4,288 nt of DNA from a virus (Duplodnaviria > Heunggongvirae > Uroviricota > Caudoviricetes), in IMG/VR virus record IMGVR_UViG_2671180547_000009; one strand, written 5' to 3'. Of the stretch, positions 1 through 4,288 are shown piece after piece. Within the stretch, counting starts at the first letter, position 1. Each line of letters opens with the position of its first letter. Both the position numbers and the translations under genes were made by a program. The notes below the pieces were generated by a model. That model made no database searches and had not been told where the DNA came from. It was given only the letters and a program-made list of their open reading frames with translations.

Positions 1-157
1 GCTTTGAACTCTTTAGAGTAACGTTGGGTTTTTCTGCTCATTATTAGCTCCTTCTGATGCCATTCTATTTCAGGAAGGAGTGTCCGTTAAACTCAGGCTA
101 CCTCAGGTTATTCGCTTCTGGGCATGGGCGGATCAACAAATGATAGACGGTAATGCA

Positions 158-1229: not shown

Positions 1230-1270
1230 NNNNNNNNNNNNNNNNNNNNNNNNNNNNNNNNNNNNNNNNN
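1230..1270. other. Run of 41 N (assembly gap or masked sequence)
   Basis: Literal n characters; the true length of the missing sequence is unknown. Confidence 0.95.
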
Positions 1271-1286
1271 AGTTTCAGGAGGATTT

Positions 1287-1709
1287 ATGGCGAAACCTTT
1301 TACTCCCGAACAGCGGGAAGAACTGAAGACGCGAATTGTGGAACTCGTGCATCAGGACGGTCGGGTCACGATTCGGCAGTTGTCAGATGAAACAGGTATC
1401 AGTCGTGCGTCTGTCGGTCGCTTATGCATAGAACTGGTCGCAAGTGGTGATGTATATAATTCTGGCTACGGCTTATTCCCGTCTGAACAGGCTCGCAAGG
1501 ACTGGCAAAGCGCCCGCAAAAAACTCTCGAGAGTAAAGGTGAGGAAACCGGTTGTTGTTGATCCGGACCTTATCTGGTCATTACCTGACGGAGAAATACG
1601 CCGCTACGACAGGCGCCTGAATATAATCTGTCGCGAGTGCCGGAAGAGCGAAGCTATGCAGCGTGTACTGGCTTTCTATCAGGGTAATTTTCAGGAGGCG
1701 ATACTGTGA
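1287..1709 (+). CDS. Helix-turn-helix protein, possibly Ren-like (140 aa)
   Basis: ATG 1287 preceded by AGGAGG (1277-1282, 4-nt spacer). HTH-like segment TIRQLSDETGISRASVGRL near the N-terminus. Its position right after the helicase-loader gene and the C-terminal CRECRKSEAMQRVLAFY match my recollection of lambda Ren (unverified). In-frame continuity with the DnaC-like ORF in the supplied track is an artefact of the N-run. Confidence 0.55.
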   Translation: MAKPFTPEQREELKTRIVELVHQDGRVTIRQLSDETGISRASVGRLCIELVASGDVYNSGYGLFPSEQARKDWQSARKKLSRVKVRKPVVVDPDLIWSLPDGEIRRYDRRLNIICRECRKSEAMQRVLAFYQGNFQEAIL

Positions 1710-2123
1710 ATGAAATTAGCTATCAGGCTTCAATTACCGCTGGCATTCGCATCAAAGGAGAGGAGCATGGAAATAAAACCAGAAGATGAGTTAAGCAATA
1801 TCGTTTTATTTCCGGTAAAAGAGGATGACCCTCGTAATCAGGTTAATTTTCTTTATGAGCCATCGGAAAGACCATATTGCCATCACGCCTCTGTACGGGT
1901 TGACGAAAAAGAGCGTCAGGTCCGCTGTAAAATCTGCGGTGCGGTTGTGGAGCCGTTTGACTGGATGCTCTCTGTGGCAAAAAGAGAAACCAGACTGGCA
2001 GATGATGTAAGGCTATTGCGCCAGGAGGAACAGGAAAGGCGGAGAAATATAGAAAAGCTGATACAGATTGAGCGTAACGCGAAAGCGCGGATACGCAGGG
2101 CGACAAAATCCAGAACTGAATAA
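1710..2123 (+). CDS. Hypothetical small protein with Cys/His cluster (PYCHH...CKIC) and basic coiled-coil C-terminus
   Basis: ATG 1710 directly abuts the upstream TGA (TGAATG), suggesting coupling. An alternative start is ATG 1767, preceded by AAAGGAGAGGAG. C-terminal ...RLLRQEEQERRRNIEKLIQIERNAKARIRRATK is charged and helical. No family recognised. Confidence 0.55.
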   Translation: MKLAIRLQLPLAFASKERSMEIKPEDELSNIVLFPVKEDDPRNQVNFLYEPSERPYCHHASVRVDEKERQVRCKICGAVVEPFDWMLSVAKRETRLADDVRLLRQEEQERRRNIEKLIQIERNAKARIRRATKSRTE

Positions 2124-2270
2124 TTAAATTTAGCACTGTTAAAAATTTAATCCTTAACCGGAGGGATTTCTGCACCCTCAAATCATCAGGAGACCACCCG
2201 AAAGGGCGGGGAGCAGTCACACATCTGTTTCCGATAGCCCCGTTCTAATGCTACACTCTTTGATATTTTT

Positions 2271-2957
2271 ATGACCCCAATAAACATATTTATGACAGTT
2301 GCTGATTTCAAACGGCCCAAATTGGAGCTCCCAAACGGGGCAAACAAACTACTACTGCACTCTTGCTGTGCTCCATGTTCCGGTGAGGTGATGGAGGCGC
2401 TTCAGGCCTCGGGAATCGACTACACCATCTTTTTCTACAACCCGAACATTCATCCTCAGAAAGAGTATTTAATTCGTAAGGATGAGAATATTCGCTTTGC
2501 TGAACAACACGGCGTGCCGTTTATTGATGCTGATTACGACACAGACAACTGGTTTGAACGAGCCAAAGGAATGGAATGGGAGCCCGAACGAGGGATCCGT
2601 TGCACCATGTGTTTTGACATGCGTTTTGAGCGGACAGCGCTGTACGCCGCTGAAAATGGTTTCAGTGTGATCAGCAGTTCACTGGGCATTTCACGCTGGA
2701 AAAATATGCAGCAGGTTAACGACTGTGGGCGGCGAGCCGTCGCGCATTATCCGGGCATGGTGTACTGGGATTATAACTGGCGCAAGCAGGGCGGCTCGTC
2801 CCGTATGATTGAAATCAGCAAGCGCGAAAAATTCTATCAGCAGGAATATTGTGGCTGTGTGTATTCTCTGCGCGATACCAATCTACACCGCAAATCTCAG
2901 GGACGCCCTCTTATCAAAATTGGTCAACTCCACTACGGTAAAGAAGAGAAGGAGTGA
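2271..2957 (+). CDS. queH: QueH-like (DUF208) epoxyqueuosine reductase
   Basis: 228-aa ORF with HSCCAPCS near the N-terminus plus further conserved-looking Cys pairs (CTMC, CGC), matching the Cys-rich metal-binding signature I recall for DUF208/QueH. Alternative start ATG 2292 (MTVADF...). Neither start has an obvious Shine-Dalgarno sequence. Confidence 0.7.
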
Positions 2958-2978
2958 TTTTATGGGGCACCTTTCTGA

Positions 2979-3008
2979 TTGATTTCATATTGGCGAGGTA
3001 AGTAGAAT
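2979..3008 (+). promoter_or_regulatory. Sigma70-like promoter candidate TTGATT-N18-TAGAAT
   Basis: -35 TTGATT at 2979-2984 and -10 TAGAAT at 3003-3008; it uses the same two hexamers as the promoter candidate at 3414-3441. It would drive transcription into the N-run. Confidence 0.3.
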
Positions 3009-3026
3009 GACTGCGGGTGCTTGAGG

Positions 3027-3063
3027 CTATCTGCTTCAGGCATGAACACCAAAAGGCAGATAG
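3027..3063. repeat. 8-bp perfect inverted repeat CTATCTGC-N21-GCAGATAG
   Basis: 3027-3034 is the reverse complement of 3056-3063. It lies just downstream of the promoter candidate, so it could be an RNA hairpin in a 5' leader or a protein-binding site. Confidence 0.4.
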
Positions 3064-3116
3064 AGAAAAGCCCCAGTTAACATTACGCGTCCGGCAAGAC
3101 GCTTAACATTAATCTG

Positions 3117-3326
3117 NNNNNNNNNNNNNNNNNNNNNNNNNNNNNNNNNNNNNNNNNNNNNNNNNNNNNNNNNNNNNNNNNNNNNNNNNNNNNNNNNNNN
3201 NNNNNNNNNNNNNNNNNNNNNNNNNNNNNNNNNNNNNNNNNNNNNNNNNNNNNNNNNNNNNNNNNNNNNNNNNNNNNNNNNNNNNNNNNNNNNNNNNNNN
3301 NNNNNNNNNNNNNNNNNNNNNNNNNN
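3117..3326. other. Run of 210 N (assembly gap or masked sequence)
   Basis: Literal n characters; the content cannot be assessed. Confidence 0.95.
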
Positions 3327-3342
3327 CATCCTCAACGCACCC

Positions 3343-3392
3343 GCACTTAACCCGCCCATCGCTGTGATCTCTCAGCGTTTCGGCGGGTTTTT
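3343..3392 (+). terminator. Rho-independent terminator
   Basis: CCCGCC (3343-3348) pairs with GGCGGG (3374-3379), with an inner stem CGCTG (3352-3356) / CAGCG (3365-3369), followed immediately by TTTTTTGTTGTTT. The minus-strand version lacks a downstream T-run, so it is unidirectional. Confidence 0.6.
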
Positions 3393-3413
3393 TGTTGTTT
3401 ATTTCCGGTGAAT

Positions 3414-3441
3414 TTGATTCGCGCACCTTCGCAGATAGAAT
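3414..3441 (+). promoter_or_regulatory. Sigma70-like promoter candidate TTGATT-N16-TAGAAT
   Basis: -35 TTGATT at 3414-3419 and -10 TAGAAT at 3436-3441, about 80 nt upstream of ATG 3523 and just after the terminator. Confidence 0.4.
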
Positions 3442-3522
3442 CGACTCACTTAAGTAGCGCGCAGGGAGAAGAGGGATGGACCCCGAACAGGGGAGAGCTA
3501 TTTATCTGGAAGGATTCTGAAG

Positions 3523-3810
3523 ATGAAAATCGAAGAATTGCGTGAAATTTTTAGTGAAAATGGCCTCTATGCTGTGCGCGTTGAGAATGGAGCGATTGTC
3601 AGCCATTGCCGCATTAGATGTTTGCAATCTCAACAAAGGAAGAGCGGTGCTGTGTTATTTTATTTTTGTAATGGACTTCTGACGGACGGTTTTATTTTGC
3701 GTGAGGACGAATTTGTCACATCATTACGGGTTTTGAAAGAGATTGGTTTTAAGGCTGGTTTTCTGCTTTTGCTGAAGAATAAACTCATCTACAATCTTGA
3801 GCAGGATTGA
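3523..3810 (+). CDS. Hypothetical protein, 95 aa, AT-rich orphan gene
   Basis: ATG 3523 with GGAAGGA 8 nt upstream; own promoter candidate and upstream terminator; by eye, markedly lower G+C than the replication genes. No family recognised. Confidence 0.55.
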   Translation: MKIEELREIFSENGLYAVRVENGAIVSHCRIRCLQSQQRKSGAVLFYFCNGLLTDGFILREDEFVTSLRVLKEIGFKAGFLLLLKNKLIYNLEQD

Positions 3811-3848
3811 ACTCCTGCTGTGTAACACCGTGCCACCGGAGAAAGCCG

Positions 3849-4202
3849 ATGGCACATATACAACTGGTCAAACAAACCTCTTCCGGATTACTTCTCCCGG
3901 CGACGCCGGAGAGTTGCGATTTTCTGCATCAAATCAAAATAGGTGAGTGGATACACGCAGACTTTAAGCGTGTGTGTAACTACGCATTCCACAAGCGTTT
4001 TTTCAAACTCCTGCAACTGGGTTTCGATTACTGGACTCCGGTCGGTGGGGCGATCACGCCTCGCGAACGAAAACTGGTGTCCGGTTTCGTTGATTACCTG
4101 TGTGAATCAGTAGGCCGGGAACATACGCCAGCTCTGAGCGAAGCCGCAGAGCAATTGAGGTGTACTGGCAATAGCGGACACTACCATTTGTTCTTTTTTT
4201 AA
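3849..4202 (+). CDS. Hypothetical prophage protein, 3' end probably altered by IS insertion
   Basis: The track ORF starts at TTG 3807, overlapping the previous stop; a more likely start is ATG 3849, preceded by GGAG (3838-3841). The stop TAA 4200-4202 overlaps the stop of the minus-strand transposase tail. No family confidently recognised. Confidence 0.5.
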   Translation: MAHIQLVKQTSSGLLLPATPESCDFLHQIKIGEWIHADFKRVCNYAFHKRFFKLLQLGFDYWTPVGGAITPRERKLVSGFVDYLCESVGREHTPALSEAAEQLRCTGNSGHYHLFFF

Positions 4203-4288
4203 GCAGCCATCTGATGATATTTTTCCCTGAAGGCTGCCGGGGAGATATTCCCCAGACGAGAGTGACGACGCTGACGATTGTAGAAAAT
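4199..4288 (-). CDS. IS3-family-type DDE transposase, C-terminal 29 codons (partial, continues beyond window)
   Basis: The reverse complement of 4202-4288 translates to IFYNRQRRHSRLGNISPAAFREKYHQMAA, then stop at 4199-4201. The YN..R.HS.LG..SP..F pattern is the characteristic C-terminal motif of rve-type (IS3-like) transposases. Confidence 0.6.
   Translation of the reverse strand: MFYNRQRRHSRLGNISPAAFREKYHQMAA

What the first reader, a model, noticed from the sequence alone, without database searches (positions are those of the whole stretch)
2979..3392. Promoter-to-terminator transcription unit whose body is hidden by the 210-nt N-run
A TTGATT-N18-TAGAAT promoter candidate (2979-3008) and an 8-bp perfect inverted repeat (3027-3063) precede the gap, and a strong plus-strand intrinsic terminator (3343-3392) follows it. 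This implies a short, self-contained unit of roughly 330 nt or more (small protein or sRNA) between QueH and the orphan gene. Only a 12-codon ORF (ATG 3041 to TAA 3077-3079, poor RBS) is visible before the gap, so the product is essentially unknown.
Basis: partly seen in the sequence, partly recalled or inferred. Interest (0 to 1): 0.5.

Follow-up and report, generated by a model that had tools for sequence, protein, structure and literature searches.

The report
Prophage hok/sok toxin–antitoxin cassette
The unit interrupted by the N-run is an ordinary, already described hok/mok/sok type I toxin–antitoxin cassette of a lambdoid prophage: a small membrane toxin gene kept silent by mRNA folding and by an antisense RNA from the opposite strand.

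Summary

The unit is a known one: a complete hok/mok/sok type I toxin–antitoxin locus.
- The visible 5' part (3015-3115) matches the Rfam hok-leader model RF01794. The match is cut off by the mask.
- Seven assemblies have flanks 99.8-100% identical to the window, and two of them share the window's IS600 junction. All seven carry the same 277 nt in the gap, so the 210-N run does not preserve length.
- Those 277 nt hold the Sok promoter and 5' end, a 70-codon mok frame, and a 51-aa Hok toxin (Pfam PF01848). The toxin differs by one residue from HokW of Stx phage 933W/Sp5, which has been shown experimentally to be a toxin.
- The bases just after the gap (3330-3342) are the fbi box, which pairs with the mRNA 5' end (tac, 3015-3026).
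- The 3' hairpin and U-run of the antisense Sok RNA are visible on the minus strand (3116→~3060).

The verdict is an already known system of low interest. The gap content is inferred from relatives and was not read from the source itself.

The parts
2979..3008 (+). Promoter of the hok/mok mRNA (-35 TTGATT 2979-2984, 18-nt spacer, -10 TAGAAT 3003-3008)
   Evidence: Pattern scan. The -10 is conserved at a fixed 6 nt upstream of the conserved GGGTGC mRNA start in 8 full-length hok loci. Promoter activity was not tested.
3015..3116 (+). Visible 5' leader of the hok mRNA, with the inferred TSS at about 3015. It contains tac (3015-3026), the 10-bp leader hairpin (3027-3036 / 3054-3063) and ucb (AAGCCCC, 3068-3074).
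   Evidence: Rfam RF01794 model positions 1-83 of 157: 58.7 bits, E = 1e-11, against a gathering score of 59; the match is cut by the mask. The identical sequence in L001 gives the full 157/157 match at 117 bits. On its own the leader folds into the tac/ucb stem plus hairpin, the same as the Rfam consensus structure.
3060..3116 (-). 3' two-thirds of the antisense Sok RNA gene: a long hairpin followed by GGGGCUUUUCU. Its 3' end lies at about 3060-3066.
   Evidence: Transferred from the annotated K-12 sokC and the annotated sokW of phage 933W. The 77-nt RNA folds at -30.2 kcal/mol, z = -5.0, with a free 5' tail.
3117..3326 (.). N-run of 210 N. In relatives it hides 277 nt (L001 3347-3623):
- Sok 5' tail, with TSS at L001 3366 on the minus strand
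- Sok promoter TTGCCT-17-TAACCT (L001 3401→3373)
- mok SD GAGG and mok ATG (L001 3358)
- the SD/dcb target hairpin
- hok SD and hok ATG (L001 3415) through the stop codon (3568-3570)
- a 3'-UTR hairpin (L001 3579-3606)
   Evidence: The gap sequence is identical (0 mismatches in 277 nt) in L001 and in 7 further assemblies with flanks 99.8-100% identical to the window. Two of these share the window's IS600 junction. ORFs. Pfam PF01848 at 81 bits. The content is inferred and was not read from the source.
3330..3342 (+). fbi (fold-back inhibition) box CCUCAACGCACCC, complementary to the mRNA 5' end GGGUGCUUGAGG (tac)
   Evidence: The minimum-energy fold of the 448-nt mRNA pairs mRNA positions 1-6 with 390-395 and 7-12 with 383-388 (-191 kcal/mol, z = -8.0). 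R1-type hok and K-12 hokB predict the same closing helix with different, compensated sequences.
3349..3399 (+). Intrinsic terminator of the hok mRNA: stem 3349-3356 / 3382-3389, inner hairpin 3360-3364 / 3373-3377, then a T-run
   Evidence: Fold. It is homologous to the compact K-12 / N58 / AGR6128 hokD terminator AACCCGC-TTCG-GCGGGTT-TTTGTTTTT, but carries a 23-nt insertion in the loop.

Best explanation
The region 2979-3399 is a complete hok/mok/sok type I toxin–antitoxin cassette. It is closest to hokW/sokW of Stx phages, and NCBI's automated genome annotation labels it hokD. It sits between queH and a rem-like gene in the nin-type region of a lambdoid prophage.

Proposed mechanism. Steps 1-3 are read from sequence, homology and predicted folds. 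Steps 4-6 are inferred from the R1 hok/sok and Sp5 hokW/sokW literature.
1. The promoter at 2979-3008 starts an mRNA of about 448 nt at about 3015, and that mRNA ends at the terminator 3349-3399.
2. In the full-length mRNA the 5' end (tac, 3015-3026) pairs with the fbi box (3330-3342). This closes the molecule, and the mok SD, mok AUG and hok AUG are all base-paired, so nothing is translated.
3. From the opposite strand, a promoter hidden in the gap makes a Sok RNA of about 70-77 nt. Its 5' tail covers the mok ribosome-binding site and start codon, and its hairpin and U-run lie at 3116→~3060.
4. Slow 3' trimming removes the terminator and fbi. The 5' end then re-pairs with ucb (3068-3074), which opens the mok start.
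5. While the unstable Sok is being made, it binds this trimmed mRNA and the duplex is degraded (RNase III).
6. When Sok synthesis stops, for example on prophage induction, prophage loss or host transcription shut-off, mok is translated. Translation of hok is coupled to it. The 51-aa Hok peptide inserts into the inner membrane, depolarises it and kills or lyses the cell.
For: - Rfam RF01794 matches window 3015-3115 at model positions 1-83 and stops at the mask. In the identical unmasked relative the match is complete (157/157, 117 bits against a gathering score of 59).
- The gap is filled identically (277 nt, 0 mismatches) in L001 and in L013-L017, L019 and L021. L016 and L019 are 100% identical to window 1271-3116 and 3327-4288, including the IS600 junction.
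- The hidden ORF is a Hok/Gef toxin: PF01848 at 81 bits against a cut-off of 22, and phrog_251 'MokW-like host killing', E = 1e-32. It is 98% identical to HokW, 90% to K-12 HokD and 78% to HokC.
- The in-frame 70-aa mok ORF is 96% identical to MokW and is arranged like the annotated K-12 mokC/hokC.
- Sok is placed by alignment to the annotated sokC and sokW and has a stable hairpin and U-run.
- The tac–fbi closure is predicted in the minimum-energy fold and recurs with compensated sequences in R1-type hok and hokB. The tac/ucb alternative is predicted in the isolated leader.
- The mechanism in the literature: PMC9841398 for R1. PMC8621323 shows that hokW-sokW is a working type I TA that aids Sp5 release.
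- The locus is common: 3,897 of 5,426 complete E. coli genomes hold at least 80% of it, as do 79 phage records.
Against: - The gap in the window's own source was not read. The N-run is 210 against 277 nt in relatives, so the content is an inference, although a strong one.
- No expression, toxicity or antitoxin data exist for this allele.
- The Sok promoter hexamers (TTGCCT / TAACCT) fall below the scanner's threshold.
- ViennaRNA does not predict the open tac/ucb conformation for the trimmed full-body mRNA. It predicts a local 5' hairpin instead.
- Chromosomal hok loci tested in the older literature did not mediate post-segregational killing (cited in the preprint).
- The NCBIfam Hok models score below their curated cut-offs: 55 against 73, and 38.9 against 89.
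Confidence: 0.92

Rival explanations
1. The cassette is present in the source strain but dead. The hidden part would be interrupted by an insertion sequence or point mutations, as in K-12 hokA/hokC/hokE, and that interruption could also be why the assembly has a gap there.
For: The window is bracketed by IS600 ends (1-106 and 4156-4288). In related loci L012 and L018 the hok region is replaced or disrupted by IS elements. K-12 hokC and the SZQ1 locus have IS186/IS421 directly downstream. The N-run length (210) does not equal the 277 nt seen in relatives.
Against: The two assemblies that share the window's exact IS600 junction and are 100% identical on both flanks (L016, L019) have the intact 277-nt core. 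An IS of 1.2-1.3 kb would be a poor fit to a 210-N gap estimate. The first N-run (41 N against 304 nt) shows that N lengths here carry no information in any case.
Confidence: 0.05
2. The terminator at 3349-3399 mainly serves to end read-through transcription from queH and the upstream replication-region operon. On this view the promoter-like site is fortuitous, and hok is simply the last gene of that operon, as hokD/relF is in the K-12 relBEF operon.
For: Only 21 nt separate the queH stop (2957) from the -35, and no terminator lies between them. The promoter pattern alone is not above chance. K-12 hokD has lost its own leader and sits behind relBE.
Against: The full hok leader begins exactly 6 nt after the -10, with tac, ucb and the Sok target all conserved. 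These elements only function at the 5' end of a transcript that starts there. The terminator and leader accompany hok behind unrelated upstream genes. A 5'-extended read-through RNA could still end here, so the two roles are not exclusive.
Confidence: 0.03

Closest known systems
hokW/mokW/sokW of Stx2 phage 933W and Sakai prophage Sp5 (AF125520 annotation; Takada et al. 2021, PMC8621323)
   Same: DNA is 92% identical over the promoter -10 through the fbi box. Hok differs by 1 of 51 residues (E50R) and Mok is 96% identical. The Sok hairpin and Sok promoter hexamers are identical. Both are prophage-borne.
   Different: The Sok 5' recognition tail differs at 7 of the first 16 nt. The -35 region differs. 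933W diverges directly after fbi and lacks this terminator hairpin. The genomic context also differs: here the locus lies between queH and a rem-like gene upstream of the Q-like antiterminator, while in 933W it lies near the right end of the genome.
hokD (relF) of the E. coli K-12 Qin prophage
   Same: The toxin is 90% identical. The fbi box is the same, the terminator stem AACCCGC/GCGGGTT is homologous, and a rem-family gene lies downstream in both.
   Different: K-12 hokD matches only the 3' half of the locus (query positions 193-444). It lacks the promoter, tac, ucb, mok start and sok, and sits behind relBE. This locus is the complete version, and its terminator loop carries a 23-nt insertion.
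hokC (gef)/mokC/sokC of E. coli K-12
   Same: The leader, the in-frame mok/hok arrangement and the position of the antisense gene are the same. The toxin is 78% identical.
   Different: In sokC and the hokC leader, an 18-nt hairpin tip present here is absent. The K-12 hokC 3' end is cut by IS186, so it has no fbi box or terminator.
hok/mok/sok (parB) of plasmid R1, the mechanistic prototype
   Same: The overall mRNA architecture is shared: a tac–fbi closing helix just upstream of a terminal hairpin, a 5' leader with the Sok target, and a toxin of about 50 aa. The mechanism is described in PMC9841398.
   Different: The toxin is only 43% identical. In R1, mok is in a different reading frame from hok (read from L011), whereas here it is in frame. 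R1 is plasmid-borne with a demonstrated post-segregational killing role.

Membership tests
[quoted passage not shown] | Small (about 50 aa) hydrophobic Hok/Gef toxin ORF (Pfam PF01848) | tested here: met
   Tested on the gap-filling sequence of relatives with identical flanks, not on the masked window. PF01848 scores 81.1 bits against a cut-off of 22, covering profile positions 1-42 of 42. phrog_251 scores E = 1e-32. Precomputed HOK_GEF hits are present in L013-L017, L019 and L021.
[quoted passage not shown] | Conserved, structured hok mRNA 5' leader (Rfam RF01794) | tested here: met
   Window 3015-3115: 58.7 bits, E = 1e-11, model positions 1-83, truncated by the mask and 0.3 bit under the gathering score of 59. 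The unmasked identical relative scores 117 bits over positions 1-157 of 157.
[quoted passage not shown] | mok leader reading frame that starts upstream of hok, overlaps it, and is the target of Sok | tested here: met
   A 70-aa ORF at L001 3358-3570 is in frame with hok, with a GAGG SD 8 nt upstream. It is 96% identical to the annotated MokW and has the same layout as the annotated K-12 mokC/hokC. Translational coupling was not tested.
[quoted passage not shown] | cis-encoded antisense Sok RNA with its own promoter and terminator, complementary to the mok translation start | tested here: met
   Positional homology to the annotated sokC and sokW. The RNA spans L001 3366→3290 (window 3116→3060 visible) and folds into a hairpin plus U-run with a free 5' tail, z = -5.0. 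The promoter TTGCCT-17-TAACCT is identical to that of 933W but weak against consensus. Expression was not tested.
[quoted passage not shown] | Long-range tac–fbi fold-back closing the full-length mRNA, with an alternative tac–ucb stem | tested here: met
   Both boxes are visible in the window (3015-3026 and 3330-3342). A 12-bp helix with one bulge appears in the minimum-energy and centroid folds, z = -8.0. R1-type hok (GGCGCUU/AAGCGCC) and hokB (GGGUGCC/GGCACCC plus UGAGA/UCUCA) keep the helix with changed bases. The tac/ucb stem is the minimum-energy fold of the isolated leader. These are thermodynamic predictions only.
[quoted passage not shown] | Hok is toxic, and Sok neutralises it post-transcriptionally | not testable with these tools
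   Shown experimentally for HokW/SokW, which differs by 1 residue (PMC8621323). Not shown for this allele.
HokD (NCBI's automated annotation name for the protein in the relatives) | Score above the curated cut-off of an NCBIfam Hok model | tested here: not met
   The best hit, NF007279 (Hok family, subfamily model), scores 55 bits against a cut-off of 73. The HokA equivalog scores 38.9 against 89. No HokD HMM hit was found. The name 'HokD' in RefSeq records therefore rests on sequence similarity. The nearest characterised protein is HokW at 98%, with K-12 HokD at 90%.

The most novel reading that the evidence does not exclude
This allele may be a specificity-shifted variant of hokW/sokW. Its Sok 5' recognition tail and the matching mok start region differ from SokW at 7 of 16 positions while the rest of Sok is identical. 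This could let several hok/sok cassettes coexist in one poly-lysogenic genome without neutralising one another. Separately, the 23-nt insertion in the terminator loop could change the rate of 3' trimming, and with it the delay before the toxin mRNA becomes active. Neither idea is excluded or supported beyond the sequence differences. Cross-duplexes of the tails are still predicted at about -24 kcal/mol, against -41 to -44 for the cognate pairs.
Probability: 0.2. Interest if true: 0.25.

Novelty: already known. Interest (0 to 1): 0.08.

Why it matters
It matters little for discovery. hok/sok has been a textbook type I toxin–antitoxin system since the 1980s. The phage-borne hokW/mokW/sokW is annotated in the 933W GenBank record (AF125520) and was characterised in 2021. 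The exact hidden sequence is present in many public assemblies.

The practical value is in annotation. The N-run should not be read as hiding an unknown product. The bases flanking it (tac, ucb, the Sok hairpin, fbi and the terminator) are functional RNA elements of the cassette. The locus also illustrates two points: multi-copy prophage cassettes coincide with the N-runs in this window, and K-12's 'hokD' is a truncated remnant of a complete cassette that about 72% of complete E. coli genomes carry.

Tried and rejected
- tRNA scan of the window: nothing found.
- Rfam E-value scan: the only other hit was a chance snoRNA match at E = 0.96.
- The simple terminator scanner missed the real terminator because of its 25-nt loop, so I relied on folding instead.
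- Two genome-contig scans found nothing, so the source organism was not identified that way. One used the DUF1367::IS600 junction and the other the terminator variant.
- PADLOC gave no hit for Hok or for the neighbouring gene.
It lies inside the leader hairpin. 933W has a 1-nt deletion in it, and the plasmid loci and hokC have no ATG there.
- Folding the 3'-trimmed mRNA did not reproduce the published open conformation. I therefore do not claim the refolding step from my own computation.
- A sliding identity profile over 7 loci shows only a modest dip at the Sok tail, and other loops dip as well. That is too weak to claim diversifying selection.
- Files for loci L004-L009 did not reach the Python sandbox. 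I aligned them with the alignment tool instead.

Full report
**Observation.** The window is a fragment of a lambdoid prophage early region. It holds an O-like and a DnaC-like (ydaV) replication gene, a DUF977/Ren-like gene, a gene of unknown function, queH (PF02677), the unit in question, a rem-like gene and a truncated DUF1367 gene.

- TTGATT-N18-TAGAAT lies at 2979-3008.
- The inverted repeat is 3027-3034 / 3056-3063, extending to 10 pairs.
- A hairpin plus T-run lies at 3349-3399. It folds at -24.1 kcal/mol with z = -5.9. The simple scanner missed it only because its loop is 25 nt.
- The N-run is 3117-3326.
- The mini-ORF is off by one: ATG at 3042, TAA at 3078-3080.

The promoter pattern alone is not above chance, with 3 sites found against 2.6 expected.

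**What it is.** An Rfam scan of the window gave one hit. RF01794, the hok/sok leader family, matches 3015-3115 on the plus strand at model positions 1-83 of 157, with 58.7 bits and E = 1e-11. The match stops exactly at the mask.

Megablast against complete E. coli genomes found two genomes with flanks 99.8-100% identical to the window. Both are annotated queH – hokD – hypothetical protein. In one of them (L001, NZ_CP065613) the Rfam match is complete: 157/157 positions and 117 bits against a gathering score of 59.

Mapping the window onto L001 shows that the 210 N stand for 277 nt, L001 3347-3623. The first N-run (41 N) likewise stands for 304 nt of the dnaC-like gene, so the N-runs do not preserve length.

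An exact-protein look-up with the downstream gene returned ten more places. In seven of them (L013-L017, L019, L021) the 277-nt gap sequence is identical to that of L001. Two of these (L016 = CP102341.1, L019 = CXIN01000012.1) are 100% identical to window 1271-3116 and 3327-4288, including the junction with the insertion sequence at 4155/4156. The gap content is therefore inferred with high confidence, but it was not read from the source.

**Anatomy.** Window coordinates are used where the sequence is visible and L001 coordinates where it is hidden.
- The mRNA starts at about 3015 (GGGUGCUUGAGG), 6 nt after the -10. That spacing and a -10 hexamer are conserved in eight full-length hok loci from chromosomes, phage 933W and plasmids.
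- The hidden part holds a GAGG Shine–Dalgarno and the mok ATG (L001 3358), the hok Shine–Dalgarno and ATG (3415), and a shared stop codon at 3568-3570.
- Hok is 51 aa and matches PF01848 at 81 bits and phrog_251 'MokW-like host killing'.
- Hok is 98% identical to HokW of 933W/Sp5, 90% to K-12 HokD, 78% to HokC and 43% to R1 Hok.
- The 70-aa mok frame is in frame with hok, exactly as in the annotated K-12 mokC/hokC pair.
- The antisense gene was placed by aligning the annotated K-12 sokC and 933W sokW. Its TSS is at L001 3366 on the minus strand, preceded by TTGCCT-17-TAACCT, and its 3' end is at about L001 3290-3296. The last 50-57 nt of Sok, a long hairpin followed by GGGGCUUUUCU, are therefore visible in the window on the minus strand at 3116→~3060. 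The RNA folds at -30.2 kcal/mol, z = -5.0, and leaves a single-stranded 5' tail that is complementary to the mok ribosome-binding site and start codon.

**RNA logic.** The 448-nt full-length mRNA is predicted to fold at -191 kcal/mol (z = -8.0). Its first 12 nt (tac, window 3015-3026) pair with CCUCAACGCACCC at window 3330-3342, the first bases after the gap. This is the fbi box, and it sits just upstream of the terminator hairpin. In that fold the mok SD, the mok AUG and the hok AUG are all paired.

The same closing helix is predicted for an R1-type plasmid hok (GGCGCUU/AAGCGCC) and for K-12 hokB (GGGUGCC/GGCACCC plus UGAGA/UCUCA). The pairing is kept even though the sequences differ.

This matches the published R1 mechanism. 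A closed full-length mRNA is slowly trimmed at its 3' end. The 5' end then refolds onto ucb, and either Sok binds and RNase III cleaves the duplex, or mok-coupled hok translation proceeds (PMC9841398).

My own fold of a trimmed mRNA did not reproduce the open form, so that step rests on the literature.

**Function.** For the near-identical hokW-sokW of prophage Sp5, toxicity, neutralisation by sokW, loss of sokW after mitomycin C, membrane localisation of HokW and a two-fold contribution to phage release were shown experimentally (PMC8621323). [quoted passage not shown] By inference this cassette does the same job for its prophage. Which of these roles dominates is unknown.

**Rivals.**
- The terminator is not specifically queH's. 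It is homologous to the compact hokD terminator AACCCGC-TTCG-GCGGGTT-T-run of K-12, N58 and AGR6128, where the upstream genes differ. Here it carries a clean 23-nt insertion in the loop. Read-through from queH would nevertheless also stop there.
- A dead, IS-disrupted copy in the source strain cannot be excluded, because related loci L012 and L018 have insertion sequences in place of hok. The assemblies sharing the window's own IS junction have an intact core, however.

**Comparison and novelty.** The locus is the complete form of what K-12 retains as the 5'-truncated hokD/relF; K-12 matches only query positions 193-444. At least 80% of the locus is present in 3,897 of 5,426 complete E. coli genomes, with a median of 2 copies and up to 9 per genome, and in 79 phage records.

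It differs from hokW/sokW in four ways:
- one Hok residue;
- 7 of the first 16 nt of the Sok tail;
- the -35 region;
- the presence of the hokD-type terminator.

The NCBIfam Hok models score below their cut-offs, so the 'HokD' label rests on similarity. Nothing here is new in kind, and interest is low.

Noticed in passing
window 1-106 and 4156-4288: Both ends of the window are ends of IS600, an IS3-family insertion sequence. The right-hand copy truncates the DUF1367 gene (3807-) at 4155/4156. The same junction occurs in CP102341.1 and CXIN01000012.1. One of the other matching records is HE616528.1; from memory (not checked with the tools) this is Shigella sonnei 53G, which would make a Shigella-type, IS-rich genome the likely source.
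   Followed up: partly
It matches phrog_340 (E = 6e-20), has a precomputed hit to Pfam PF27490 (Rem), and occurs in thousands of assemblies. The TTGATT-16-TAGAAT site upstream aligns with the region upstream of rem in the K-12 Qin prophage, so hokD–rem adjacency is conserved. The function of Rem is unknown.
   Followed up: partly
window 1230-1270 and 3117-3326: Neither N-run preserves length: 41 N stand for 304 nt of the dnaC-like ydaV gene and 210 N for 277 nt. The hok cassette is multi-copy (median 2 copies per genome, up to 9) and the ydaV-type gene is a prophage gene, so the N-runs may be scaffold gaps at collapsed repeats rather than deliberate masks. This is an inference only.
   Followed up: no
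L001 3553-3558 (hidden in the window's gap): The Tyr47 codon plus the next bases, UACGAA, is invariant in all 9 hok loci aligned, although the neighbouring codons vary. This is the motif reported for TadA A-to-I editing, which recodes Tyr to Cys in hokB and, per the 2026 preprint, in hokC/D/E. Editing could therefore tune the toxicity of this Hok as well.
   Followed up: no
L001 3345-3366 (hidden; Sok 5' tail / mok start): The Sok recognition tail differs from SokW at 7 of its first 16 nt, while the remaining 55 nt are identical. Locus-wide identity among 7 loci dips here (0.68-0.74 against 0.83-0.93 in the flanks). Cross-duplexes of the tails are predicted at about -24 kcal/mol against -41 to -44 for cognate pairs. 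This may limit cross-talk between co-resident cassettes.
   Followed up: partly
window 3356-3381: There is a clean 23-nt insertion (CCATCGCTGTGATCTCTCAGCGT, with its own 5-bp hairpin) in the loop of the otherwise canonical hokD terminator. This terminator variant gave no exact match in the species-representative genome collection, but it does occur in the Shigella-like assemblies.
   Followed up: partly
L012 2195-2371 and L018 about 1020-2400: In some relatives the hok cassette upstream of the rem-like gene is replaced or cut by IS elements. In L012 an IS600 end abuts the former terminator region. This repeats the IS-inactivation pattern known for K-12 hokA/C/E.
   Followed up: no
window 2991-3008 compared with L004 (strain N58): Relative to the N58 queH–hokD locus, this locus lacks about 10 nt between TTGGCG and TAGAAT. 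The -35 role would therefore pass from TTGGCG (17-nt spacer in N58) to TTGATT (18-nt spacer here). Promoter strength may differ between alleles.
   Followed up: no
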